64,000 nucleotides of DNA from an uncultured Clostridia bacterium (lineage in GTDB: Bacteria; Bacillota; Clostridia; Oscillospirales; Ruminococcaceae). Below, one piece after another: positions 9,223 to 61,337 of the stretch. Where the stretch lies: assembly GCA_947625375.1 (NCBI GenBank), contig CANQOC010000005.1:45630-109629 (forward strand), in the 5' to 3' direction. The translations under genes and the position numbers were made by a program. Position 1 is the stretch's first letter, and the number at the start of each line of letters is the position of its first letter. The notes under the pieces were generated by a model that saw only the letters and a program-made list of their open reading frames with translations, did not search any database and was not told where the DNA came from.

Positions 9223-10650
9223 TTACTTCTCCTTTCCGCCTCCGGCTTTCATTCCGGGGAGGGATATCCTTACGGTTGTTCCCTTTCCGAGCTCGCTGTT
9301 GATGAGGAGCTGTCCGCCGTGCATTTCGATTATTTCATCAGCGACCGCAAGCCCGATTCCCGAGCCGCGGCGCGTGTGATTCGCCTTATAAAACTTTGTC
9401 TTGACCTTCGGTAAATCCTCGGCGCTTATTCCGACGCCGGTGTCCGAGACAAGTACGACCGCGTCGCCGTGGTCCTCGAACGCCTCGATAGATACCGTCC
9501 CTCCCGGGTTTGAATACTTGACCGCGTTGTCGATAATATTGATGAACACCTGTCTTAATCGCTGCGCGTCGCCGTAGACGAACGGGAGCATCTCCGGCTC
9601 GAAGTATTCAATTCCGATTCCGAGCTCCTTCGCCCTCTCGGTATATATCAGGACCGCGTCGCCGAGCTCGGCCAGAATGTCGGTCTTCTCTTTCGTCAGG
9701 GTGAACCGCCCGTCTTCAATCCGAGAGAAGTCCAAAAGCTCCTCGACCATTCCCGAAAGACGCTCGGTCTCTCCGGTGATGACCCTCATTCCCTTTCGGA
9801 AGGTTTCGGGGTCGTTCCCGACCTCGCAAAGCGTCTCGCTCCAGCCTTTTATCGCGGTCAGCGGCGTCCTTAATTCGTGCGACACCGAGGAAATAAACTC
9901 GTTCTTCATCTTCTCGGTGTTCTCGAGGGCGCTCGCCATATAGTTTATCGAGTCACAGAGGTCGCCGAGCTCGTCGTCGGTCCGCTTTTCTATTCTTACG
10001 CTGAAATCGCCGTCGGCATATCCCCGCGCGGTCTCGCTTATCTGTCTCACCGGGAGGACGATTGACTTTACGAAATAAAGTCCCGACGCGAGCATCAGAA
10101 GAAATATCACCGCCGACACCGAGACAAGCACCGCGGCGATTCCCCCGAGCTGTCGGTCAACGGTGTCGAGCGAGGTCATTATGCTCATCGCGCTGTACTC
10201 TTTTAACGGACTCGGGAGGATTACGGTATAGCTCATAACGTGCTCCCCGCTCTGTAGCCTGCGCTCCGAGGAGGCGGTTCCGTCGTCCGAGACGAGCGCC
10301 GAGAAATAGTCGCCTGTGCCGAGCCAGTCGGCAGGCTGAAATCCCGAGCTCGTAAGGGTGACCTTTCCGGCGTCGTCGATAGCCATAAGCTCGAAGCGCT
10401 CTTTCTCCGAAAACTGCTCCACCGTGTTCCTGACCTCGGTGCGGTATGACGCCGAGCCGGAAAACCGGGACAGCGACCCGCTAACGGTCTCCATTCGGGA
10501 GACGAGGTACTGCCTCACCGTGCCGAGATAATAGTTCCGCGCCATAAACAGCGTCAGCACCGACACCGCCGTGAGCACAAGGAGAACAAGGCCGAGCGTA
10601 TTGAACGCCCAGCGTATCGTTATCGAATGCTTGAAGCCTTTTTTTCTCAT
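9223..10650 (-). CDS. Sensor histidine kinase (2 TM, HAMP, HisKA, HATPase)
   Basis: H-box SHELRTPLTAI, N-box IDNAVKYS, G-boxes DTGVGI and GSGIGL. Confidence 0.92.
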   Translation of the reverse strand: MRKKGFKHSITIRWAFNTLGLVLLVLTAVSVLTLFMARNYYLGTVRQYLVSRMETVSGSLSRFSGSASYRTEVRNTVEQFSEKERFELMAIDDAGKVTLTSSGFQPADWLGTGDYFSALVSDDGTASSERRLQSGEHVMSYTVILPSPLKEYSAMSIMTSLDTVDRQLGGIAAVLVSVSAVIFLLMLASGLYFVKSIVLPVRQISETARGYADGDFSVRIEKRTDDELGDLCDSINYMASALENTEKMKNEFISSVSHELRTPLTAIKGWSETLCEVGNDPETFRKGMRVITGETERLSGMVEELLDFSRIEDGRFTLTKEKTDILAELGDAVLIYTERAKELGIGIEYFEPEMLPFVYGDAQRLRQVFINIIDNAVKYSNPGGTVSIEAFEDHGDAVVLVSDTGVGISAEDLPKVKTKFYKANHTRRGSGIGLAVADEIIEMHGGQLLINSELGKGTTVRISLPGMKAGGGKEK

Positions 10651-40447: not shown

Positions 40448-40708
40448 TCAGTCTCCCGAGCCGACCGGGCCGTTATATCCGCACCAGTCGCAGACAAGGC
40501 TGTTTCCGCCGTCGTACAGATAGATATACGACCCGCCGGACTTCTTGCACATCGGGCAGCAGGGCGCCGGGCGCGTCTTCTGCTCCGCGCCGTCGGATTT
40601 TTTCAGCATCGCGCCGACGCTCTTAATCACGTCGCCGACAATTCCGCCCCCGACAGCTCCCGAGAGCTCGCCGTCTTTAAGCTCGCAATCCTCTTTTCTG
40701 TTGGACAT
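40448..40708 (-). CDS. Array A member A10: double-glycine-leader peptide with zinc-ribbon-like core
   Basis: Leader ...ELKDGELSGAVGG. Core GIVGDVIKSVGAMLKK, a linker, then CCPMCKK...CDWCGYNGP. Confidence 0.75.
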   Translation of the reverse strand: MSNRKEDCELKDGELSGAVGGGIVGDVIKSVGAMLKKSDGAEQKTRPAPCCPMCKKSGGSYIYLYDGGNSLVCDWCGYNGPVGSGD

Positions 40709-40751
40709 TCCGTCAGCCTCCTTTCGTCCTCGGCCGGTCGGCCTTGGGTTA

Positions 40752-41069
40752 TCATCTCATCGTGACAAAGCCGAATTCGTCTTTTCCGATAGAGTCAGGC
40801 TTCGGGGGTTCTTTTTCCTCATGCTTTGGGCGGAACATGGACAGCCAAAAGTCTCCGCACGCTTCCAAAAAATCGTCAAGGATTTCAATTCCTCCGGCGG
40901 CGCCTTCGATTTCCTCGTCAGAAATCTCTCCGCTCCTCGCGTTTATCTTAGAGAAAAACTTCTCGGCGTCTTCCGGCGCGAGGTCCTTGCCGTTTTCCTT
41001 TGCAAGCTCGATAAGCTCGCCGGCGGACTTTGCCGCCCTTGCCCTTTTAATGAATTCTTCTTGTGTCAT
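40752..41069 (-). CDS. Array A member A9: Nif11-type-leader precursor
   Basis: Leader MTQEEFIKRARAAKSAGELIELAKENG...SGEISDEEIEGAAGG. 45-aa core IEILDDFLEACGDFWLSMFRPKHEEKEPPKPDS... Confidence 0.8.
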   Translation of the reverse strand: MTQEEFIKRARAAKSAGELIELAKENGKDLAPEDAEKFFSKINARSGEISDEEIEGAAGGIEILDDFLEACGDFWLSMFRPKHEEKEPPKPDSIGKDEFGFVTMR

Positions 41070-41092
41070 AATATTATCTCCTTTCGGTATTT

Positions 41093-41410
41093 TTATCTCA
41101 TCGTGACAAAGCCGAATTCGTCTTTTCCGATAGAGTCGGGCTTCGGGGGTTCTTTTTCCTCATGCTTTGGGCGGAACATGGACAGCCAAAAGTCTCCGCA
41201 CGCTTCCAAAAAATCGTCAAGGATTTCAATTCCTCCGGCGGCGCCTTCGATTTCCTCGTCAGAAATCTCTCCGCTCCTCGCGTTTATCTTGGAGAAAAGC
41301 TTCTCGGCGTCTTCCAACGCGAGGTTATTGCCGTTTTCCTTTGCAAGCTCGATAAGCTCGCCGGCGGACTTTGCCGCCTTTAATGTTTTAATAATTTCTT
41401 CGTTAGCCAT
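41093..41410 (-). CDS. Array A member A8: Nif11-type-leader precursor (paralog of A9, identical core)
   Basis: The C-terminal two thirds are identical in protein to A9, while the N-terminal leader is diverged. 341-bp tandem duplication. Confidence 0.8.
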   Translation of the reverse strand: MANEEIIKTLKAAKSAGELIELAKENGNNLALEDAEKLFSKINARSGEISDEEIEGAAGGIEILDDFLEACGDFWLSMFRPKHEEKEPPKPDSIGKDEFGFVTMR

Positions 41411-41458
41411 AATAATATCCTCCTGTAAATAAGTATCGGCTTTACTGTCCGAAGATTC

Positions 41459-41782
41459 TCAGTTCTTAATGATAACCTTCTTATTACGCGGATCCAACAG
41501 CTGGCAGAGCAGCATATCGGGTTCATGACCCAGATGTCTGCAGGTTCCGCAGCACCCCTGAAGAATAACCTTGGCTTCGCCGTTGGTAATGCCCTTTTGG
41601 CGCGCGTAAAGGGAAATATTCATTTCGCTCGGAGTGCTGTCGCCCGGCTGATACTGTCCGATAATACACTTGGTGTCAAGCTTAATGACGGGATAGTCGA
41701 GAGAGCCTTCGCCCCCGCCCGCCGCGGCGCTGAGCTTAACGTCGTTAATTTCGCTGTGCTTAATAATCTCTTCATCTGCCAT
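41459..41782 (-). CDS. Array A member A7: short GG-leader precursor with 84-aa core
   Basis: Leader MADEEIIKHSEINDVKLSAAAGG. The core ends ...LQGCCGTCRHLGHEPDMLLCQLL... Confidence 0.72.
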   Translation of the reverse strand: MADEEIIKHSEINDVKLSAAAGGGEGSLDYPVIKLDTKCIIGQYQPGDSTPSEMNISLYARQKGITNGEAKVILQGCCGTCRHLGHEPDMLLCQLLDPRNKKVIIKN

Positions 41783-41823
41783 AATATCGCCTTCTTTCTT
41801 AACGATTAAATTAACCCGGGTTA

Positions 41824-42159
41824 TTAGTTTAGATATAACGGTCCTTCATATCCGCAGTCGTCACAGTAAATCATCTTTGTGCCGTCGGGAGCGTCGTGAA
41901 TAAAAATCCATGCCGACGACGTCTGACCGCAAATCGGGCATTTTTCGGGAGTCCAAGGCGGCGCCGCGGGAGTGGGAGCTTTCGGCTCTTTCTGCTTTTT
42001 CGGCTTAGAGTCCTTTCCACCGTAAAACAAACCGCCGATAGATTCCTTGACCCAGTCAACTACTCCCCCGCCGGCGACATTGTCGAGATTGTCGTCCGAG
42101 ATTTCGTGCGGCTCGGCGGCCTCGATTTTTTCTTCTTTTTTGATTTCCTTTTCAGACAT
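41824..42159 (-). CDS. Array A member A6: GG-leader peptide with zinc-ribbon-like core
   Basis: Leader ...HEISDDNLDNVAGG. Core GVVDWVKESIGG, a Lys/Pro-rich linker, then CPICGQ...CDDCGYEGP. Confidence 0.75.
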   Translation of the reverse strand: MSEKEIKKEEKIEAAEPHEISDDNLDNVAGGGVVDWVKESIGGLFYGGKDSKPKKQKEPKAPTPAAPPWTPEKCPICGQTSSAWIFIHDAPDGTKMIYCDDCGYEGPLYLN

Positions 42160-42205
42160 AATATTATCTCCTTTAAATAAATTTCGTCAGTCGGATATGC
42201 GGTCA

Positions 42206-42451
42206 TCAGACCGAGGACAAGGGCCCCTCATATCCGCACAGCAAGCATTTAATCATAACCGTGCCGTCATCGGCCGCGGTGCCGAAAACAAAAACATTGT
42301 CCACAGGCTTATGGCAAAAGGGGCAGAGGTCGGGTTCCTTCGGCTTCTCCCAAGGATAATGCAAATCCGCCTTAATCCAATCATCGATTGCTCCCCCTCC
42401 CGACGCCTTTTCGAGAGCGCCGTCCGAGAGCTCGCTGTTAAGCCTTTTCAT
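42206..42451 (-). CDS. Array A member A5: GG-leader peptide with zinc-ribbon-like core
   Basis: The ATG at 42451 follows SD aaggagga. Leader MKRLNSELSDGALEKASGG. Core GAIDDWIKADL...CPFCHK...CLLCGYEGP. Confidence 0.75.
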   Translation of the reverse strand: MKRLNSELSDGALEKASGGGAIDDWIKADLHYPWEKPKEPDLCPFCHKPVDNVFVFGTAADDGTVMIKCLLCGYEGPLSSV

Positions 42452-42474
42452 TGCAGCTCCTCCTTCGCGGGTCA

Positions 42475-42657
42475 TCAAAGCCTGCACATGCCGTTGCCGC
42501 AATATTGTCTGCAGTTGTCACAGGACTTATCTTTACTGCCATACTTCCCATTAAAAAGGTCGCAGTAATGCTCGGGCGGGCAGTCGTGACCCCCGTCGAC
42601 CCCGACGCTCTTTCCGCCGGTAACCTTCTCGGTTTCAATGTCTTTAGATTCTTTCAT
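42475..42657 (-). CDS. Array A member A4: bacteriocin-type GG-leader, 6-Cys core
   Basis: MKESKDIETEKVTGG then KSVGVDGGHDCPPEHYC...SCDNCRQYCGNGMCRL. Confidence 0.8.
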   Translation of the reverse strand: MKESKDIETEKVTGGKSVGVDGGHDCPPEHYCDLFNGKYGSKDKSCDNCRQYCGNGMCRL

Positions 42658-42682
42658 TGTAAAGTCCCCTTTCTTCAGTCAA

Positions 42683-42868
42683 TCAAAGTCTGCACCTGTT
42701 GTTGCCGGAATACGCCTGACAGTTGTCACAGGACGTATCCTTCTTCCACTTATCCTTCGCGCAAAATCCTCCGCAGGTATGCGCGGGCGGGCAGTCGTGA
42801 CCCCCGTCGACTCCGACGCTCTTTCCGCCGGTTGCTTCCTCAATCTCGAAATCATTAAGCTCTTTCAT
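42683..42868 (-). CDS. Array A member A3: bacteriocin-type GG-leader, 6-Cys core
   Basis: MKELNDFEIEEATGG then KSVGVDGGHDCPPAHTCGGFC...SCDNCQAYSGNNRCRL. Confidence 0.8.
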   Translation of the reverse strand: MKELNDFEIEEATGGKSVGVDGGHDCPPAHTCGGFCAKDKWKKDTSCDNCQAYSGNNRCRL

Positions 42869-42891
42869 TGTAAATCCTCCTTAAAATAATG

Positions 42892-43110
42892 TTATCGTGC
42901 ATGGTTGCACAGGTCTTTTCCGTCGTTGTTTTTTCCGCAATGGTGACGGCAGTTGTAACAGGAATCCGGGTCTCCCGGAAGTCTTCCGCTGCCCTCTTTC
43001 TCGTGATAATACTTGCATATCTTGCTTTCGGGACAGGTCCAATAGCCGTAGACGTTGACGGTTCTTCCGCCGGTGACTTCCTCAATCTCGAAATCATTAA
43101 GCTCTTTCAT
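42892..43110 (-). CDS. Array A member A2: bacteriocin-type GG-leader, 6-Cys core
   Basis: MKELNDFEIEEVTGG then RTVNVYGYWTCPESKIC...GDPDSCYNCRHHCGKNNDGKDLC. Confidence 0.8.
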   Translation of the reverse strand: MKELNDFEIEEVTGGRTVNVYGYWTCPESKICKYYHEKEGSGRLPGDPDSCYNCRHHCGKNNDGKDLCNHAR

Positions 43111-43127
43111 TGTAATTCCTCCTTAAA

Positions 43128-43355
43128 TTACGGTTCCCACCAAGCTAATGTGCACAGGTTTTCTCCCTTTTGATTATATCCGCAGAAGAAGCGGCAGTAG
43201 ATGCAGGAATCAGGGTCTCCCGGCTGTTTGACCATGCCATCCTTAAATAAATAATGCTTACACATACGGCTTTCGGGACCAACCCAATAACCTATCGGGT
43301 TGACACTTCTTCCTCCGGCGGCCGTCTCGAGTTCCTTGTCGTTAATTTCTTTCAT
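43128..43355 (-). CDS. Array A member A1: bacteriocin-type GG-leader, 5-Cys core
   Basis: MKEINDKELETAAGG then RSVNPIGYWVGPESRMC...GDPDSCIYCRFFCGYNQKGENLC. Confidence 0.8.
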   Translation of the reverse strand: MKEINDKELETAAGGRSVNPIGYWVGPESRMCKHYLFKDGMVKQPGDPDSCIYCRFFCGYNQKGENLCTLAWWEP

Positions 43356-52398: not shown

Positions 52399-52430
52399 AA
52401 AGCGGTGTACTTCGGTGCACCGCTTTTTTT
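52399..52430 (+). terminator. Terminator after the second SBP-like gene
   Basis: Stem agcggtgtac, loop ttcg, stem gtgcaccgct, followed by ttttttt. Confidence 0.8.
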
Positions 52431-52449: not shown

Positions 52450-52513
52450 TTGACGCAGATGACACCTTTTTCCCGCAAACGACAAGGCACAGAGGGAAAA
52501 GATGTGATATAAT
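52450..52513 (+). promoter_or_regulatory. Array B promoter: degenerate copies of the array A direct repeat plus an extended -10
   Basis: TTGACGCAGATGACAC (12/16 match to GTGACGTAAACGACAC), about 20 bp on TTCCCGCAAACGACAA (11/16), then 22 nt to TGaTATAAT (52505-52513). Confidence 0.6.
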
Positions 52514-52557: not shown

Positions 52558-52989
52558 ATGAACGAAATCATTAAAAAAGCAAGAGCGGCAAAGTCGGCCG
52601 GAGAGCTCATCGAGCTTGCGAAAGCCAACGGCAAGGACCTCACCAAAGAACAGGCCGAGATGTTCTTCAAAAGCCTCAGCCAAGGCGGCGAGATATCCGA
52701 CGAGGAGCTTTCGAGCGCGGTCGGCGGGTGCGGCGGTTCGGAAATATCCTGGGAGAAGAGCCTCGGCTTCTCGAGAATCGATTGCCGAAAGGGCGACTTC
52801 GTCGGGGGACACACCTTTGCGGCGAAGACGTATTGGAAGTGCGCCATCTGCGGGGGACACATCTACTGCGACGGTCCTTTGACCGCATACACCAACTGCA
52901 CCCACCTCAAGCAGCATAAGGTCCTCGGCTGTAACAACTGCTTTTTCAACGAGAACGGAAAATGCAACTACTATGACGACAGCCTTTGA
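52558..52989 (+). CDS. Array B member B1: Nif11-type-leader precursor, 86-aa 9-Cys core
   Basis: Leader MNEIIKKARAAKSAGELIELAKANG...GEISDEELSSAVGG. The core starts CGGSE, contains WKCAIC and ends GCNNCFFNENGKCNYYDDSL. Confidence 0.8.
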   Translation: MNEIIKKARAAKSAGELIELAKANGKDLTKEQAEMFFKSLSQGGEISDEELSSAVGGCGGSEISWEKSLGFSRIDCRKGDFVGGHTFAAKTYWKCAICGGHIYCDGPLTAYTNCTHLKQHKVLGCNNCFFNENGKCNYYDDSL

Positions 52990-53019
52990 TTAAGGGCAGG
53001 GTTCTGAGGAGGTATTATC

Positions 53020-53445
53020 ATGAACGAGGAAATTTTAGCAAAGGCAAAGGCGGCAGGTTCGCCGGAGGAGCTTTTAAAGCTTGCTCACGAAAACGGCATG
53101 TCCTACTTTACCGAGGAGAACGCGAACGCTTATTTCAACGTCCTGCACCAGAGCGGCGAGATTACGGACGAAGAGCTTGAAAAAGCGGCGGGAGGCTGCA
53201 AGAGCAACAAGAGGCGTGTCGTTACGCTCGGATACATCTGCCCCGTAAACTACGGAGGCTGGAAGTGCAAGGACTGCCTTGCGCCGAACAACGTCTGCAA
53301 GTGCTGGCTACAGCCGCCGGAGCTTTCGCGCAAGTTCCACGCGTCAATCTTCGCGTGGTGCGCCGATACATGCAGCACCTGCGCGTGGTGTTCATATGAA
53401 AGCGGCATATGGTACTGCAACAACCCCGAAGCAAACGAACTGTAA
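53020..53445 (+). CDS. Array B member B2: Nif11-type-leader precursor, 82-aa 11-Cys core
   Basis: Leader ...AAGSPEELLKLAHENG...SGEITDEELEKAAGG. The core starts CKSNK, contains WKCKDC and CSTCAWCSYESGIWYCNNP. Confidence 0.8.
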   Translation: MNEEILAKAKAAGSPEELLKLAHENGMSYFTEENANAYFNVLHQSGEITDEELEKAAGGCKSNKRRVVTLGYICPVNYGGWKCKDCLAPNNVCKCWLQPPELSRKFHASIFAWCADTCSTCAWCSYESGIWYCNNPEANEL

Positions 53446-53465
53446 TCCCGAAGGGAGAATTTAAC

Positions 53466-53891
53466 ATGTTTAACGAAGAAATGATTAAAAAAATCCGCGG
53501 ACTCGGCTCGCCCGAGGAGCTTATTGAGTTCGGAAAGGAAAACGGCGTCGCAATCAGCAAGGAGACGGCGGAGAAGTATTTTAACTCGCTTCACGGCAGC
53601 GGCGAAATCTCGGACGAGGAGCTTGAGAACACCGCCGGCGGCTGCGGCGGAGGCTATTCGCCGTCGATATATAAGCAATGCCCCGAATGCGGGACAAATA
53701 TCGCGATGAAGGACTTCCGCGACGTCAAGGTTATCGTCAGCGACGAGGTTCTCCACCAGTGGGGATATCCGACCGGCGTATGCCCGAAATGCAACGTCCG
53801 CTATGCTTATGTCCGCGCGCTGAATATGCTCTATCCCGTATCGGTTGACGAAAAGGGCACTTGGGTCATAAGACCGCCGCACAGATATTAA
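53466..53891 (+). CDS. Array B member B3: Nif11-type-leader precursor, 82-aa core with two CxxC pairs
   Basis: The ATG at 53466 follows SD aagggaga. Leader ...SGEISDEELENTAGG. Core CGGGYSPSIYKQCPEC...GVCPKC. Confidence 0.8.
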   Translation: MFNEEMIKKIRGLGSPEELIEFGKENGVAISKETAEKYFNSLHGSGEISDEELENTAGGCGGGYSPSIYKQCPECGTNIAMKDFRDVKVIVSDEVLHQWGYPTGVCPKCNVRYAYVRALNMLYPVSVDEKGTWVIRPPHRY

Positions 53892-53903
53892 AGGAGCTTT
53901 ATC

Positions 53904-54398
53904 ATGAACGACGAAATTTTAGCAAAGGCAAAGGCGGCGGGGTCGCCGGAGGAGCTTTTGAAGCTGGCTCACGAAAACGGCATGTCCTACTTTACCGAGG
54001 AGAACGCAAGGGCGTATTACAGCCTTATGCACCAAAGCGGTGAGATATCCGACGAGGAGCTTGAAAACGCGGCGGGAGGCTGTCGGAAGGGCGGGTATAG
54101 GGTTGTCTCGCGCGGAAATGTATGCGGCTTGGGGCAGTCGGTGGCAATCAACGGCTTCTATGCGTTCACTGAGTGGAAATGCAAGACCTGTAAAGAAATG
54201 CCGGGAGCCGGACTTAGCTTTGAAGACTGGTATAATGTTCACAGGTCATGCAGCTGCAACCGCAGCATATTAGACTCTGTTGCATTTTCGCTCGGCGTAT
54301 CCGTCAACTTCGGGGCGGTCGGAGTCTGCGGCTCCTGCGATTGGTGCAATTACGTCGACGGCGTTTGGATTTGCACAAACCCGCGTGATGCCGAGTGA
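53904..54398 (+). CDS. Array B member B4: Nif11-type-leader precursor, 105-aa 10-Cys core
   Basis: The leader is nearly identical to that of B2. The core starts CRKGG, contains WKCKTC and CGSCDWCNYVDGVWICTNP. Confidence 0.8.
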   Translation: MNDEILAKAKAAGSPEELLKLAHENGMSYFTEENARAYYSLMHQSGEISDEELENAAGGCRKGGYRVVSRGNVCGLGQSVAINGFYAFTEWKCKTCKEMPGAGLSFEDWYNVHRSCSCNRSILDSVAFSLGVSVNFGAVGVCGSCDWCNYVDGVWICTNPRDAE

Positions 54399-54415
54399 AC
54401 ATAACTGAGAAAGCC

Positions 54416-54547
54416 ATGAAAGAAGAAATCATTAAAAACGGCGAGATTTCAGACGACGAGCGTGAAAGCGCGGTCGGCGTCCTCGACTACAGGCGCTTCT
54501 CGGAGGTGCAGATTATCGAGGTCTATCACGCATACGGCGGCTTCTGA
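54416..54547 (+). CDS. Array B member B5: 43-aa ORF with a collapsed or decayed leader (remnant or possible signalling peptide)
   Basis: Not in the ORF track. MKEEIIKNGEISDDERESAVGVLDYRRFSEVQIIEVYHAYGGF. Retains the leader ends (EEIIK and GEISDDE..SAVG) but has GV in place of GG. Weak SD. Confidence 0.4.
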   Translation: MKEEIIKNGEISDDERESAVGVLDYRRFSEVQIIEVYHAYGGF

Positions 54548-54660: not shown

Positions 54661-54852
54661 ATGAAGATGGCAGATTCAAAGTACACAAGCGTGAGATACT
54701 GTCCTCATCTCGGGCACAACGTGATTATCGAGCAAAGGATTCGCGGCGGGGTTATTTGTCTCGAGTGCCTCAACCGTGCGGACTGCGGGTATTCGGAGGA
54801 AGGCTGCCGGAATAGACTGATAGAGGATAGACGGTTAGAGGATAGAAGTTAG
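54661..54852 (+). CDS. Small leaderless Cys-rich protein (63 aa)
   Basis: SD aaagggag lies upstream of the ATG at 54661. MKMADSKYTSVRYCPHLGHNVIIEQRIRGGVICLECLNRADCGYSEEGC... The last ~10 codons and the stop lie in a purine tract. Confidence 0.5.
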   Translation: MKMADSKYTSVRYCPHLGHNVIIEQRIRGGVICLECLNRADCGYSEEGCRNRLIEDRRLEDRS

Positions 54853-58168: not shown

Positions 58169-60088
58169 TTAATTTTGAAAGTACTCCGATACCGCCTTAA
58201 CAAACTCATCTTTGGTAAGAGGCTGCTTGCCGGATTTACCGCTTACGGGCGCCTGTGACTGCCCCTGCGCAGGCGCAGCAGTTTCAGTCGAATTTTCGGA
58301 AAGCATTTCAGGATTAAGGTCAAAGAGAGTCATCTGACCTGAGTCTTCATTCTTTTCCTTCTTCTGTGTAGCCATGAAGTTCTTAACATATTCCTGATAA
58401 ATCTCAAGCTGCGTTTTCGGATTGCTGACTTCGGCAAACGACTTCACGCCGGACGCCGTAATTGCAAAATCAAGCAGAGAAAGCTGACCATCGTCCACAG
58501 TAGCCGATACACCTACGGACTCCGAAGGCTCAACAGCAGCCTTATCGAGATCACGATAACGGAAGATATCACTGCTCTTGATTTCATCTACAATTTCTCT
58601 GTAATGGTCATGTGCAACAATGTCAAGAGAGTCCAAGTCCTCATTGCCCGTCTGTTCTCCAAATGGGAGCCTCAAGCCGCGGCCAATAGTCTGCATAGCA
58701 AGAATTTCGCTTTTTGCCGCATTAAGCGGGATAATCGTAAAGAGGTTATTGACATCCCAGCCTTCCTTCAGCTTATAAACGTGCAAAACAATCTCAATCG
58801 GGTTGGAAGAACTCTCTATAGAGAGCAAAAGACGGATATTCTCTTCTGATTCTTCACCAGTCTGTTTTGAATGGATTTCTATAACCTTGCCCTTATACTT
58901 GCCGTTTTGGAAGTCATCGCTGTCGATAAGCACACGTATTTTCTTTGCATGGTCTGTATCTTTGCAGGCAATAAGAACAATCGGTTTCACATAGCCGAGA
59001 TCATTCTCATTGCAATAGTCTCCTTTTTCATCACAAAGTAACAGTACCGGGAAGAGAAGTTTTGAGGAATCGCAGAAGGCTCCTATAAACAGGATTCCGT
59101 GCGATCCGAGAACTTTTTCTCCCCAATTATCAACTTTCCAGTAGTGAAGTCCGCCGTCAACTTCCAGCTCATCAAATGCACTCCAGTATTCCACGTCGTG
59201 CAGGTACCTTGCAATGTCAGCCTTAGTCGCTTCGAGTGCCTGTTCCTTTGCACCGCTGCTTTCGGTGAGCAGAATGGAGCGGAGTTCTCTTGCTTTCTTG
59301 TCCCGATTTGCGTTCAGTTTGCGATCCAGCTTGTCAAAGGCTTTCTTAAACTCCGCTGTGGTGTTGCAGGTCTGGTAGTCCTGACCTTCGATGTAGCGTT
59401 TGATAAATACCTTTTCGCTTCCGAAAATACGCTGGTCAATAAATGATACCAGTCCGTGAAGATCTGTCAGCGAATTCTGAAGAGGTGTAGCAGTCAGCAA
59501 AATCTTCGGTATGCCCTTGGATAGTTCATACAGATTCTTTGCACGTTTCGTTCCGTGAAATACGTTTCTTAGGTTGTGCGCCTCATCGATAATGATGAAA
59601 TCCCACTTCACCTCCGGGAACCGTTTCATCAACTTTGATGAGTAGTCGTAGGTGGTAATGACAATTCTGACAGAATTATTGTCAGTAAGTCTCTTACGCC
59701 AGTCTGAACTATCTTTTTCTACTGTAATCCTGTCAAGTATCACTGACTCCAAATTGAACTTATCCTCAAGTTCCAGTTCCCACTGTTTTCTCAATGATGC
59801 CGGGAGTGCAATCAAGACACGCTTTGCGCCGGACTCAAGAACATATTTCAGTACAAGTCCGGCTTCGATGGTCTTTCCGAGTCCTACCTCATCGGCAAGT
59901 ACGATACCACCTGTTTTCAACGCTTGGATAGCAGCGCAGAAGGCATTTATCTGATGAGGATTCAATTCAATGTTCGCGTCCAAAAGGAAGTGGAACGGAG
60001 ATGCCTCAAGTTCCAGCTTTTTATATCTGCTGAATTGCTCAAGGAGCAGGTTACCTTCCATCTGTATCTCCTTTATACAGTTGCTCAA
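58169..60088 (-). CDS. Superfamily-2 helicase: SNF2-like N-terminal lobe, type III Res-like C-terminal lobe, no nuclease domain
   Basis: Motif I ADEVGLGKT, II IIIDEAHNL, III LLTATPLQN, then KLKEGWDVNNLFTIIPL...QTIGRGLRLPFG. The start (60088 or 60061) overlaps the MTase stop. Confidence 0.8.
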   Translation of the reverse strand: MSNCIKEIQMEGNLLLEQFSRYKKLELEASPFHFLLDANIELNPHQINAFCAAIQALKTGGIVLADEVGLGKTIEAGLVLKYVLESGAKRVLIALPASLRKQWELELEDKFNLESVILDRITVEKDSSDWRKRLTDNNSVRIVITTYDYSSKLMKRFPEVKWDFIIIDEAHNLRNVFHGTKRAKNLYELSKGIPKILLTATPLQNSLTDLHGLVSFIDQRIFGSEKVFIKRYIEGQDYQTCNTTAEFKKAFDKLDRKLNANRDKKARELRSILLTESSGAKEQALEATKADIARYLHDVEYWSAFDELEVDGGLHYWKVDNWGEKVLGSHGILFIGAFCDSSKLLFPVLLLCDEKGDYCNENDLGYVKPIVLIACKDTDHAKKIRVLIDSDDFQNGKYKGKVIEIHSKQTGEESEENIRLLLSIESSSNPIEIVLHVYKLKEGWDVNNLFTIIPLNAAKSEILAMQTIGRGLRLPFGEQTGNEDLDSLDIVAHDHYREIVDEIKSSDIFRYRDLDKAAVEPSESVGVSATVDDGQLSLLDFAITASGVKSFAEVSNPKTQLEIYQEYVKNFMATQKKEKNEDSGQMTLFDLNPEMLSENSTETAAPAQGQSQAPVSGKSGKQPLTKDEFVKAVSEYFQN

Positions 60089-61337
60089 AAATACCCATTG
60101 CTATCCCTTTGGCCATCATCGGAGGCACAGCATTTCCAATCTGAACAAATTGAGATGTGCGTGGTCCCTCAAAGAAATAGCTGTCCGGGAAGGACTGTAT
60201 TCTTGCTGCCTCGCGGACGGTAATTGATCTATTCTGTTCAATATCAGGATGAATGAAATAATGACCATCCTTTGAAAGGTGTGCCAGAATGGTATGGCAA
60301 CACGATTCATCACCTTCGACAACTTTGAACCTATCCGTGAACGAATGTCTGTTTTTATGCGTCTTCAATTCATCCGGGAGATTGTTGTAGTTGAGGCGTT
60401 TATGACCATCATTCCACAGTTCAACCGCTCTCCTGTAAATCTTGATATCCCGATCTATATTCGGTCGGCAATTATGGTGAGTCAGAACATCATCTTTCGT
60501 CCGTATTCCATATTCCGTGACATAACTGCTTGCTTTTGATTTAGCATATTTATCGGAGCTCTCGCCTGGATGCAGTTTAGGCAGATCAACAAAGAGATCA
60601 TTGACTATAGCGCCCGTTTTGATTTCAAGAAAATCGGGATACTTTAGACCGCTTTTCTTTAGCCACCCCACGATAATCATTCGGCGCCTGTTTTGGAGAA
60701 CGCCGAACGTGTGTGCGTTCTGCTCCCGACATTCAATTTCGTAACCCACTCGTTTTAAGTATTTCTGAATGTTCTTCCAAGTAGCTCCGCCGTTGGCCGA
60801 TTCAATACCCGTGACATTCTCGAAAACGAACATACGAGGCTGATAGCGTTTTAGGAAACGTGCGTACAGTTTGTATAAGTAGTTACGAGGGTCTTCTGCC
60901 ATTGGCACTTCCATGTGGCTGCTTTGCGCTCTGCCCACTAAGGAGTAAGCTTGGCAAGGAGGGCCTCCAACAATAACATCAATCTTAGTGATGCCTCGAA
61001 TTTTCATTATCCCATCAATGGTCTTGAAAATTGCCGGGAGCGTCTCGTCTGACATCGTTTCATTGATGATGGTTTTTGTTATGGAAGCAGGTATCTGCTT
61101 CATAAAATCGTCGCGGGAGATTTTCCCCAACACGTATTTTTTATATAAGCCGAGATTGTCAGTGCCTTTCAAATAATAATAGGCACTTCTCGTTTCAAGC
61201 GTTTTTGCTGCAAACTTATTCATTTCAACATGAGCTACAGGTTTGAACCCAGCCTGAAGAAACCCTTCTGAAAGACCACCTGCTCCTGCAAAAAGGTCAA
61301 TGAAATTGTAGCTATATTGCGCATCTATCTTTGGCAT
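60051..61337 (-). CDS. dcm: DNA (cytosine-5)-methyltransferase
   Basis: Motif I DLFAGAGGLSEGF, IV GGPPCQAYS, VI FVFENV, X QIGNAVPP. Confidence 0.93.
   Translation of the reverse strand: MPKIDAQYSYNFIDLFAGAGGLSEGFLQAGFKPVAHVEMNKFAAKTLETRSAYYYLKGTDNLGLYKKYVLGKISRDDFMKQIPASITKTIINETMSDETLPAIFKTIDGIMKIRGITKIDVIVGGPPCQAYSLVGRAQSSHMEVPMAEDPRNYLYKLYARFLKRYQPRMFVFENVTGIESANGGATWKNIQKYLKRVGYEIECREQNAHTFGVLQNRRRMIIVGWLKKSGLKYPDFLEIKTGAIVNDLFVDLPKLHPGESSDKYAKSKASSYVTEYGIRTKDDVLTHHNCRPNIDRDIKIYRRAVELWNDGHKRLNYNNLPDELKTHKNRHSFTDRFKVVEGDESCCHTILAHLSKDGHYFIHPDIEQNRSITVREAARIQSFPDSYFFEGPRTSQFVQIGNAVPPMMAKGIAMGIFEQLYKGDTDGR

What the first reader, a model, noticed from the sequence alone, without database searches (positions are those of the whole stretch)
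52558..54547. Array B: four Nif11-type-leader precursors whose 82-105-aa cores all begin with Cys immediately after the Gly-Gly site
Four consecutive plus-strand genes encode 57-59-aa Nif11-like leaders (…SPEELLKLAHENG…SGEISDEELENAAGG). The cores that follow are 86, 82, 82 and 105 aa long and contain 9, 11, 5 and 10 Cys. In all four the residue after GG is Cys (AVGG-CGGSE, AAGG-CKSNK, TAGG-CGGGY, AAGG-CRKGG), while none of the ten array A members has Cys at +1. An invariant N-terminal Cys after leader removal could matter for a modification, ligation, cyclisation or metal site. Cores of this size and Cys density attached to a Nif11 leader are atypical for described lanthipeptide or NHLP substrates. 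No processing genes are adjacent.
Basis: partly seen in the sequence, partly recalled or inferred. Interest (0 to 1): 0.88.

Follow-up and report, generated by a model that had tools for sequence, protein, structure and literature searches.

The report
Nif11-leader Cys-rich mini-protein precursor array
Four neighbouring genes encode small cysteine-rich proteins behind a long export leader, and the cysteine at the leader's cut site proves to be a hallmark of a large gut-Clostridia family that co-occurs with an unnamed radical-SAM enzyme, which makes a possible new protein modification testable.

Summary
There are four plus-strand genes with 57-59-aa Nif11-like double-glycine leaders, cores of 86/82/82/105 aa with 9/11/5/10 Cys, and Cys directly after GG in all four. 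A fifth ORF is a deletion remnant.

The array is a strain-variable, "orphan" set of N11P-type precursors. Sister strains carry 8 and 12 full copies at the same chromosomal site.

In 77 loci from gut Clostridia MAGs the same leader family sits in operons with two tandem ABC genes (one tested is an NHLP-type PCAT), a short HlyD-like protein, an ECF sigma factor and an unnamed radical-SAM/SPASM enzyme.

A Cys within three residues of GG occurs in about 85% of long-leader precursors (310/370; independently 124/146), whatever the cargo fold. It occurs in only 3/73 short-leader peptides from the same loci.

The Cys is absent from clusters that have the PCAT but no rSAM. It is the only Cys in some rSAM-adjacent cargos.

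The position shifts to +2 or +3 in most of the family, so chemistry that requires an N-terminal Cys is not supported.

Best reading: PCAT-exported mini-proteins whose junction Cys is the target or anchor of the rSAM/SPASM maturase. That link is inferred and the chemistry is unknown. The window itself has no rSAM or PCAT.

The parts
52505..52513 (+). Possible extended -10 promoter element (TGATATAAT), about 45 nt upstream of gene 1
   Evidence: Read by eye. The two-hexamer scan did not call a sigma-70 promoter here, and relatives carry an ECF sigma factor in the cluster. Weak.
52558..52989 (+). Precursor 1. Leader 52558-52728 (57 aa), junction Cys codon 52729-52731, core 86 aa with 9 Cys. The conserved domain has seven invariant Cys and one invariant His.
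   Evidence: Core family alignment A6. Only 2 core homologues in 5.8e9 proteins.
53020..53445 (+). Precursor 2. Leader 53020-53196 (59 aa), junction Cys codon 53197-53199, core 82 aa with 11 Cys. Core family motif: C-x4-R-x-VVT...WKCxxC...CxxCxWCxYxxGxWxCNN.
   Evidence: AlphaFold2 core model pLDDT 92.6, pTM 0.80. No PDB neighbour.
53466..53891 (+). Precursor 3. Leader 53466-53642 (59 aa), junction Cys codon 53643-53645, core 82 aa with 5 Cys: the junction Cys plus CPEC...CPKC, a zinc-ribbon-like pair of knuckles.
   Evidence: (sub-threshold zinc-ribbon hits only).
53904..54398 (+). Precursor 4. Leader 53904-54080 (59 aa), junction Cys codon 54081-54083 (TGT), core 105 aa with 10 Cys. Same core family as precursor 2.
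   Evidence: The 184-nt leader DNA is 89% identical to that of gene 2.
54417..54547 (+). Degenerate fifth precursor: a short leader remnant fused to the tail (...VLDYRRFSEVQIIEVYHAYGGF) of the last gene of the sister arrays. An internal-deletion relic.
   Evidence: L084:14751, L086:11216. It is the fifth copy of the 52-nt leader-end repeat, at 54438-54489.
40448..43355 (-). Companion array A: ten double-glycine-leader genes. Eight have short leaders and 4-6 Cys; two have the same Nif11-like leader but a core beginning IEILDD... In relatives the two arrays flank the rSAM/SPASM gene.

Best explanation
Array B is a hypervariable set of N11P-type precursor genes located away from its processing genes. 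Each product has three parts: a ~59-aa helical Nif11-like leader ending in a canonical double-glycine motif, a Cys at the junction, and an autonomously folding Cys-rich mini-protein cargo. The array holds three cargo families.

Proposed pathway:
1. The leader targets the protein to an NHLP-type peptidase-containing ABC exporter, which cuts after GG.
2. Before export, a dedicated and so far unnamed radical-SAM/SPASM maturase acts on, or is anchored through, the leader-proximal Cys. The most likely reaction is a Cys-derived thioether (sacti/ranthi-type) cross-link.
3. Both the exporter and the maturase would be encoded elsewhere in this genome.

What is shown: gene structure, leader family, GG register, conservation of the junction Cys and its link to leader type, its co-occurrence with the rSAM gene in relatives, a confident fold prediction for one core family (genes 2 and 4), and copy-number variation between strains.

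What is inferred: cleavage and export, any modification, its chemistry, and the presence of the enzymes in this genome.
For: Leader and export:
- The leader has A/V at -4, L at -7 and I/L at -12 from GG. This matches the PCAT1/LahT recognition rule (PMC6959990).
- TIGR03798 is the only NCBIfam hit for the leaders, and 7/10 relatives pass its cutoff.
- 46/84 related loci carry ~730-aa ABC genes. One tested scores 915.7 on TIGR03796 (cutoff 853.3).

Link to the rSAM:
- 44/84 loci carry one rSAM family with Radical_SAM, Fer4_12 and SPASM above Pfam thresholds.
- 28/49 rSAM genes start within 300 nt of the end of a long-leader precursor on the same strand, 20 of them within 71 nt.
- Cys at +1..+3 occurs in 310/370 long-leader cores and 3/73 short-leader cores, Fisher p = 5e-41. 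Composition alone predicts 93/370.
- An independent set, found with a leader-only profile against 1.84e9 representatives, gives 124/146.
- The same core family carries the extra Cys only when fused to the long leader.
- Loci with the precursor array well inside the contig: 26 of 27 with the rSAM have mostly junction-Cys precursors, against 4 of 9 without it, p = 0.0018.
- PCAT-positive, rSAM-negative loci L067-L069, L074 and L075 have 0 junction Cys.
- L077, L072 and L079 encode SH3-like cargos in which the junction Cys is often the only Cys; in L077 the rSAM gene follows the last of them directly.

Orphan location and dynamics:
- Orphan precursor arrays are a known N11P trait (PMC2887384).
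- Sister strains have 8 and 12 full copies at the same site.
Against: - No rSAM, PCAT, HlyD-like or sigma homologue lies in the 64-kb window. The rest of the genome is unseen.
- The association is correlative and not corrected for shared ancestry.
- Four array-interior loci have junction-Cys precursors but no rSAM within 10 kb.
- L078 has the rSAM but no junction Cys; its cores end in a C-terminal Cys.
- The long leader also occurs in rSAM-less clusters, so it is not specific to the rSAM.
- The core of the gene 2/4 family is predicted to fold on its own with high confidence. Many of its Cys look like metal ligands (CxxC pairs), whereas known sacti/ranthi synthases act on short unfolded cores.
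- No RRE/PqqD domain was detected by Pfam in the rSAM N-terminus.
- The rSAM matches no curated maturase family: best is ScmE at 117-122 bits against a cutoff of 400, and the closest solved structure is SkfB at only E = 2e-9.
Confidence: 0.55

Rival explanations
1. The products are unmodified secreted mini-proteins or bacteriocins, in the manner of class II bacteriocins or microcins. The PCAT exports the cargos as they are. The junction Cys is a structural residue: a zinc ligand, or an intra- or intermolecular disulfide partner. The rSAM in relatives serves other peptides in the cluster.
For: - GG-leader cargos of 66-90 aa exported without modification are known (PCAT1/CtA; colicin V and class II microcins from my own knowledge).
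- The core of the gene 2/4 family folds confidently by itself, and its Cys1 lies next to a beta-bridge at pLDDT about 87.
- The window has no maturase.
- An in-frame rSAM fusion with a short-leader peptide (L004, L007) suggests short-leader peptides may be the rSAM's substrates.
Against: - The Cys is present in cargos with no other Cys; 15 of 19 single-Cys cores have it at the junction. It cannot be an intramolecular disulfide or metal-site residue there.
- It is absent from the same core family when the leader is short.
- It is absent when the cluster has the PCAT but no rSAM.
Confidence: 0.25
2. The junction Cys is a generic conjugation or tether site, comparable to the lipidated Cys of bacterial lipoproteins. 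The architecture would be Cys, then a flexible Gly/Asp/Pro linker, then a globular domain held at the cell surface or joined to a partner.
For: - The six residues after the Cys are enriched in Gly (21% against 9%) and Asp (10% against 5%).
- Many cargos read CGG..., CGD... or CSPSD... followed by an SH3-like or zinc-ribbon domain.
- The preceding A-G-G resembles the end of a lipobox (my reading).
Against: - There is no hydrophobic signal peptide.
- The residues before GG are acidic.
- The Cys is usually at +2 or +3 from the predicted cut, not +1.
- No lipid- or sugar-transferase gene is conserved in the clusters. The only conserved candidate enzyme is the rSAM.
Confidence: 0.08
3. The Cys codon is a neutral passenger of the leader cassette. 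Recombination between conserved leader sequences copies leader plus the first codons onto new cargos, so the Cys has no function.
For: - The 52-nt leader-end repeat includes the Cys codon in all four genes.
- Leaders of genes 2 and 4 are 89% identical over 184 nt.
- Leader and core combinations are shuffled between strains: P0019, P0021 and P0031 differ from the window in this way.
- The fifth ORF is a deletion relic.
Against: - The Cys persists across representatives clustered at 50% identity, at three different registers (+1, +2, +3), and with both codons (TGC and TGT).
- It is selectively missing in rSAM-less clusters that use the same leader.
Confidence: 0.07
4. The proteins are uncleaved cytoplasmic proteins, with a Nif11-like N-domain and a zinc-binding C-domain acting inside the cell.
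For: - The cores contain CxxC pairs typical of intracellular zinc ribbons.
- No exporter lies in the window.
Against: - The GG motif has the full -4/-7/-12 register.
- AlphaFold2 predicts a flexible junction, with residues 54-58 below pLDDT 50.
- Precursors sit in operons with C39-ABC exporters in 46/84 loci.
- Cargos are hypervariable behind a conserved leader.
Confidence: 0.03

Closest known systems
N11P (Nif11-derived leader) precursor families, e.g. prochlorosin ProcA/ProcM systems (Haft, Basu & Mitchell 2010, PMC2887384)
   Same: Both have a long Nif11-like leader ending in Gly-Gly, a hypervariable core, and large paralogous arrays often far from the modification and export genes. Both are associated with the TIGR03796-type export system.
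   Different: - The co-located enzyme is an rSAM/SPASM protein, not LanM or a cyclodehydratase.
- The cores are 50-105-aa mini-proteins with a predicted or recognisable domain fold, rather than 15-30-aa peptides.
- A Cys within 3 residues of GG is a family hallmark.
- The window's own leaders score below the TIGR03798 cutoff.
Sactipeptide and ranthipeptide systems (SkfA/SkfB, subtilosin AlbA, SCIFF CteA/CteB, PapA/PapB)
   Same: An rSAM/SPASM enzyme is encoded next to Cys-containing precursors. SkfB is the closest solved relative of the rSAM by sequence.
   Different: - Similarity is weak: E = 2e-9, covering only the radical-SAM core.
- No curated sacti or ranthi model reaches its cutoff.
- Leaders differ and cargos are several times larger.
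- No thioether has been shown here.
PCAT1/CtA of Clostridium thermocellum, and class II microcins such as colicin V
   Same: A double-glycine leader with hydrophobic residues at -4, -7 and -12, and a protein-sized cargo (66-90 aa), cut and exported by a C39-ABC transporter (microcin sizes from my own knowledge).
   Different: Those leaders are 15-24 aa and the cargos are not known to need an rSAM. Here the leader has an extra ~40-aa helical Nif11-like part and a junction Cys.
QhpC/QhpD: gamma subunit of quinohemoprotein amine dehydrogenase and its rSAM/SPASM maturase (my own knowledge, not tested here)
   Same: This is a precedent for an rSAM/SPASM enzyme installing Cys thioether cross-links in a roughly 80-aa protein that has a leader and a dedicated export and processing route.
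   Different: That system has a single dedicated substrate that becomes an enzyme subunit, in Proteobacteria. It has no GG leader, no arrays and no cargo diversity.
NHLP/Nif11 clusters with radical-SAM and peptidase-transporter genes, noted by genome mining in anaerobes (Letzel, Pidot & Hertweck 2014, PMC4289311)
   Same: The overall gene-cluster type (NHLP/Nif11 precursor, PCAT, rSAM) had been recorded as a putative, uncharacterised class.
   Different: Those examples have leaders of 66-85 aa and cores of 14-59 aa. The paper reports no junction-Cys rule and no cargo folds, and does not treat this rSAM family or the Oscillospiraceae/Lachnospiraceae expansion.

Membership tests
N11P / TIGR03798 (Nif11-like leader peptide family RiPP precursor) | Score at or above the curated TIGR03798 cutoff (32.3 bits) | tested here: not met
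   The window proteins score 15.8, 24.5, 23.5 and 26.3 bits, and TIGR03798 is the only leader hit. Seven of 10 relatives found with the window's leader profile score 33.0-40.8 and pass. The window genes are therefore divergent members of a family that straddles the cutoff.
N11P / TIGR03798 | Leader ends in Gly-Gly, after which family-wide similarity stops and a hypervariable core begins | tested here: met
   Alignments A1 and A2. The 146 representatives have unrelated cores behind the same leader.
N11P / TIGR03798 | Paralogous expansion and association with the TIGR03794/03796/03797 export system | tested here: inconclusive
   Expansion is met: 4 genes here, 8 and 12 in sister strains, up to 17 in L009. 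A TIGR03796 member (915.7 against 853.3) is adjacent in relatives, but none lies in this window. The second ABC gene was not scored. The HlyD-like protein is only 158 aa and scores 42.7 against 156.2.
Double-glycine (C39/PCAT) secretion substrates | GG at -2/-1 with hydrophobic residues at -4, -7 and -12 in an acidic helix | tested here: met
   Window leaders have A at -4, L at -7 and I at -12. Family-wide, L at -7 occurs in 97/112 to 139/141 and L/I at -12 in 109/112 to 128/141, depending on junction class. Rule from PMC6959990.
Double-glycine (C39/PCAT) secretion substrates | Actual cleavage after GG and export by a cognate transporter | not testable with these tools
   This needs in vitro C39 cleavage or peptidomics.
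Sactipeptides / ranthipeptides | Cognate rSAM/SPASM maturase encoded with the precursor | tested here: inconclusive
   Absent from the window. Present in 44/84 related loci, often within 71 nt downstream of a precursor. It belongs to no curated sacti or ranthi family.
Sactipeptides / ranthipeptides | Cys sulfur to alpha-, beta- or gamma-carbon thioether in the mature product | not testable with these tools
   This requires MS/MS or NMR of modified product.
Class II lanthipeptides on N11P leaders (prochlorosins) | LanM-type synthetase in the cluster or genome, and a Ser/Thr plus Cys core | tested here: not met
   Clustering of neighbouring proteins across 84 loci recovered no large LanM-sized conserved protein. 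The recurrent neighbours are ABC exporters, a short HlyD-like protein, a sigma factor, the rSAM, a SpoIIE phosphatase and a MatE-HATPase protein.
Bacterial lipoproteins (Lgt/Lsp pathway) | Hydrophobic signal peptide followed by a lipobox, with Cys at +1 | tested here: not met
   The leaders are acidic and helical with no hydrophobic h-region. In most of the family the Cys is at +2 or +3 from the predicted cut.

The most novel reading that the evidence does not exclude
The leader-proximal Cys is the site of a cargo-independent modification installed by the unnamed rSAM/SPASM family. This would be a generic staple or tag placed at a fixed distance from the Nif11-like leader on folded mini-proteins of unrelated folds: zinc ribbons, SH3-like barrels, and a Cys-rich fold with no PDB neighbour. 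It would amount to a protein-level radical-SAM modification system, widespread in gut Clostridia, rather than a conventional short-peptide RiPP pathway.
Probability: 0.3. Interest if true: 0.85.

Novelty: new variant of a known kind. Interest (0 to 1): 0.62.

Why it matters
The gene-cluster type (Nif11-like leader, C39-ABC exporter, radical-SAM enzyme) is known only from genome mining. Neither this rSAM family nor its products have a described function in the literature I could search.

Both families are large. The rSAM family has at least 1,088 clusters. The leader family has 2,247 representatives at 50% identity. Both are common in rabbit, human (Hadza and other) and livestock gut metagenomes.

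The analysis turns a local curiosity (four Cys after GG) into a family-wide rule with built-in controls:
- the same cargo family with and without the long leader;
- the same leader with and without the rSAM;
- cargos whose only Cys is the junction Cys.

These give a small set of direct experiments to discover what the enzyme does.

If the cargos really are modified as folded 50-100-aa domains, this would widen what counts as a RiPP substrate. It would also add a diverse class of secreted mini-proteins to the biology of gut Clostridia.

Tried and rejected
- **Family scans of the cores.** Pfam and NCBIfam scans of the six ORFs gave nothing above threshold except sub-threshold zinc-ribbon noise for core 3.
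- **Core-only homology search.** Core 1 alone found only 2 near-identical proteins, so deep core homology could not be used.
- **Fold search.** Foldseek against the PDB found no match for the full precursor model or the high-confidence core model (best E = 1.3 and 5.8). Foldseek is weak on small irregular Cys-rich folds, so this is not proof of a new fold.
- **Cys-count parity.** I tested whether the junction Cys is an 'odd one out'. There was no signal: 153 odd against 157 even.
- **Processing genes in the window.** tblastn found none.
- **Self-cleavage idea.** An intein- or Hedgehog-like N-to-S acyl shift at G|C was rejected, because the Cys precedes unrelated folds and is often at +2 or +3.
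- **Lipoprotein idea.** Kept only as a low-probability rival, because there is no signal peptide.
- **Literature.** Seven full-text searches found no paper describing this rSAM family or a junction-Cys rule. This covers only the held library.
- **Source genome.** It could not be identified. The best hit among species-representative genomes is 59% identical.
Full report
**1. The observation**

The region 52558-54547 holds four tandem + strand genes at 52558-52989, 53020-53445, 53466-53891 and 53904-54398. Each has a Shine-Dalgarno-like site upstream.
- Leaders are 57, 59, 59 and 59 aa and end in GG.
- Cores are 86, 82, 82 and 105 aa, with 9, 11, 5 and 10 Cys.
- The residue after GG is Cys in all four.
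- With 9.9% Cys in these cores, four out of four at +1 has a chance probability of about 1e-4 (my arithmetic).

A fifth ORF (54417-54547) lies inside the reported span. It is a relic: a short leader remnant joined to the C-terminal tail of the last gene of the sister-strain arrays. It carries the fifth copy of a 52-nt leader-end repeat.

A rho-independent-type terminator at 52399-52426 closes the upstream gene. By eye there is a TGATATAAT element at 52505-52513 and a hairpin plus T-run after 54547. The scan tool called neither.

None of the ten array-A genes (40448-43355, minus strand) has Cys at +1.

**2. What the genes are**

The only family hit for the leaders is TIGR03798 (Nif11-like leader peptide RiPP precursor), below its cutoff at 15.8-26.3 bits against 32.3. 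Seven of ten relatives found with the window's own leader profile pass the cutoff. The window genes are therefore divergent members of the N11P family.

The last 15 leader residues (GEISDEELENAAGG) have A at -4, L at -7 and I at -12. That is the register shown structurally to dock GG leaders on C39 peptidase domains (PMC6959990).

AlphaFold2 on precursor 2 with 28 homologues gives three leader helices, a disordered stretch at residues 54-58 just before the GG site, and a confident core. The core alone reaches pLDDT 92.6 and pTM 0.80. It has no Foldseek neighbour in the PDB.

The array holds three cargo families:
- **Cores 2 and 4** share a nine-Cys pattern.
- **Core 1** has a domain with seven invariant Cys and one invariant His.
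- **Core 3** is the junction Cys plus a CPxC...CPxC zinc-ribbon-like domain.

**3. Genomic setting**

In the window, the array lies between two solute-binding lipoprotein genes and greA-lysS. No rSAM, PCAT, HlyD-like or sigma homologue exists anywhere in the 64 kb.

Syntenic contigs from sister strains have the same flanks, but 8 (L086) and 12 (L084) full-leader precursors, all with Cys at +1. The array is a copy-number-variable hotspot. The near-identical leader DNA (184 nt at 89% between genes 2 and 4) is an obvious recombination substrate.

**4. Relatives elsewhere**

Protein 4 has only 39 homologues among 5.8e9 proteins, none of them named. A leader-only profile, however, finds 2,247 representatives at E <= 1e-3.

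A scan of species-representative genomes returned 77 loci. Nearly all are gut Clostridia MAGs: Oscillospiraceae, Lachnospiraceae and Ruminiclostridium, from rabbit, Hadza and other human samples, and livestock.

Clustering the neighbouring proteins shows a recurrent operon:
- a short HlyD-like protein;
- two ~730-aa ABC genes, one of which tested scores 915.7 on TIGR03796 against a cutoff of 853.3;
- an ECF sigma factor;
- 1 to 17 long-leader precursors;
- a ~465-aa radical-SAM/SPASM protein.

The rSAM gene occurs in 44/84 loci. In 28 of 49 cases it starts within 300 nt downstream of a long-leader precursor.

The rSAM has Radical_SAM, Fer4_12 and SPASM domains above Pfam thresholds. It belongs to no curated NCBIfam family: the best is ScmE at 117-122 bits against 400. 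Its closest solved relative is the sactisynthase SkfB, at only E = 2e-9. Its 1,088 or more relatives are named, at most, 'radical SAM protein'.

**5. The junction Cys**

*Frequency and position.*
- Among 370 non-identical long-leader precursors in these loci, the first Cys of the core is at +1 in 112, +2 in 164 (mostly GG|GC), +3 in 34, and later or absent in 60.
- That is 84% within three residues, against 25% expected from composition.
- An independent sample, the top 150 representatives of the leader-only search, gives 124/146.
- In every class, L at -7 and L/I at -12 are counted from the first GG. The predicted cut therefore leaves C..., GC..., xC... or xxC...
- The Cys is a junction feature, not a strictly N-terminal one.

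*Three natural controls tie it to the leader and the enzyme rather than to the cargo.*
- **(a) Leader type.** Short-leader peptides in the same loci have it in 3/73 cases, p = 5e-41. Within one cargo family (core 1), the six long-leader members carry an extra C-G-G-type prefix, while the four short-leader members start directly with the domain.
- **(b) rSAM presence.** Clusters with the same leader and a PCAT but no rSAM (L067-L069, L074, L075) encode Cys-free amphipathic cores with no junction Cys. At locus level, 26 of 27 rSAM-containing loci are junction-Cys dominated, against 4 of 9 without, p = 0.0018.
- **(c) Single-Cys cargos.** In L077, L072 and L079 the cargos are SH3-like domains in which the junction Cys is often the only Cys; in L077 the rSAM gene follows the last of them directly. 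15 of 19 single-Cys cores have the Cys at the junction.

These counts are not corrected for shared ancestry.

**6. Mechanism proposed**

Export and cleavage by an NHLP-type PCAT is the conventional reading and fits every sequence feature.

The junction Cys does not appear to be required for export, because rSAM-less clusters use the same leader without it. Its fixed distance from the leader, independence from cargo fold and co-occurrence with the rSAM point to leader-guided action of the rSAM/SPASM enzyme on that Cys. The simplest chemistry is a thioether, as in sacti- or ranthipeptides. Alternatively the Cys may ligate an auxiliary cluster to position the substrate.

None of this chemistry is shown. 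Several facts argue against it:
- the missing enzyme genes in the window;
- four array-interior loci without an rSAM within 10 kb;
- the L078 exception (rSAM present, Cys only at the C-terminus of the cores);
- the confident autonomous fold and probable metal sites of the cores;
- the lack of a detectable RRE domain.

**7. Rivals**

- **Unmodified secreted mini-proteins, with a structural Cys.** This explains the orphan location. It does not explain the single-Cys cargos or controls (a) and (b).
- **A lipoprotein-like tether.** The Gly/Asp-rich linker after the Cys suggests it. There is no signal peptide and no conserved transferase.
- **Neutral hitch-hiking of the Cys codon in the leader cassette.** This fits the repeat structure. 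It does not fit the persistence across 50%-identity clusters, the three registers, or the selective loss.
- **Cytoplasmic proteins.** This is contradicted by the GG register and the exporter operons.

**8. Comparison and novelty**

The array works like N11P multi-precursor systems such as the prochlorosins: one leader family, many cargos, and precursors far from their enzymes (PMC2887384). The cluster type was noted as uncharacterised in anaerobes (PMC4289311).

Three things differ:
- the enzyme, an unnamed rSAM/SPASM family;
- the cargos, 50-105-aa domains, one family with a confident fold prediction that has no PDB match;
- the junction-Cys rule.

Seven searches of the held literature found no description of any of these. 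I class the finding as a new variant of a known kind.

Its 'N-terminal Cys' reading should be replaced by 'leader-proximal Cys linked to a radical-SAM maturase'.

Noticed in passing
L004:4082-5740 (-) and L007:1089-2705 (-): The rSAM/SPASM ORF (552 and 539 aa) runs in frame into a short-leader Cys-rich precursor (...EKDLEKATGG|FGGLSYLDG...). This looks like an enzyme-substrate fusion. In L002 the same two genes are separate (5443-6876 and 5258-5446). It hints that short-leader, array-A-type peptides are also rSAM substrates.
   Followed up: partly
L078 (JAEYAR010000058.1), precursors around 10001-10600: This locus has the same rSAM family and a PCAT, but its seven long-leader precursors have mostly 13-19-aa cores. 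Five of these end in a C-terminal Cys (e.g. PSSLRGRPKMGSC) and none has a junction Cys. It is a distinct sub-class.
   Followed up: no
L015-L018, L022, L029, L041, L042 (e.g. L016:8407-8637): A recurrent short core, GC[SQHN]xx[ND]G[HYK]L[DN][TK]..., 15-20 aa with a single Cys, seen once in each of the clusters where it occurs, among the large cargos. It could be the genuine small peptide product or a signal.
   Followed up: no
window 40448-43355 (-): Array A contains ten GG-leader genes. Four are short-leader 45-60-aa cores with 5-6 Cys and a shared D-x-S-C-x-x-C motif. Three have zinc-ribbon cores with GxVxDWxK-like N-termini. One (41459-41782) has a 23-aa leader and a different Cys-containing core. 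Two are Nif11-like-leader genes with near-identical IEILDDFLEAC... cores.
   Followed up: partly
window 54417-54547 (+): This ORF is an internal-deletion relic of the last precursor of the sister arrays (L084:14751, L086:11216). It shows recombination between leader repeats shrinking the array.
   Followed up: yes
window 54667-54852 (+): A leaderless 61-aa Cys-rich ORF (CPHLGH...CLEC...C...C) lies between array B and greA. A 61-aa gene sits at the same position in L084 (15299-15484). The two sequences were not compared.
   Followed up: no
window 58169-61337 (-), and 58-64 kb generally: An SNF2-family helicase and a C5 cytosine DNA methylase lie side by side, and GC drops from about 54% to 41-46%. 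This is probably a defence or mobile island. SNF2, methylase and AIPR genes also flank the arrays in L004.
   Followed up: no
L051, L068, L069, L074, L075: These rSAM-less clusters use the same long leader for Cys-free amphipathic peptides (NIFDKFLEFFGGFF, GIVDTIKHWVGSLFGR). They share a 422-aa protein of unknown function found only in these five loci.
   Followed up: no
window 1362-1512 (-): Two adjacent tRNA genes (Rfam RF00005, 61.8 and 65.1 bits).
   Followed up: no
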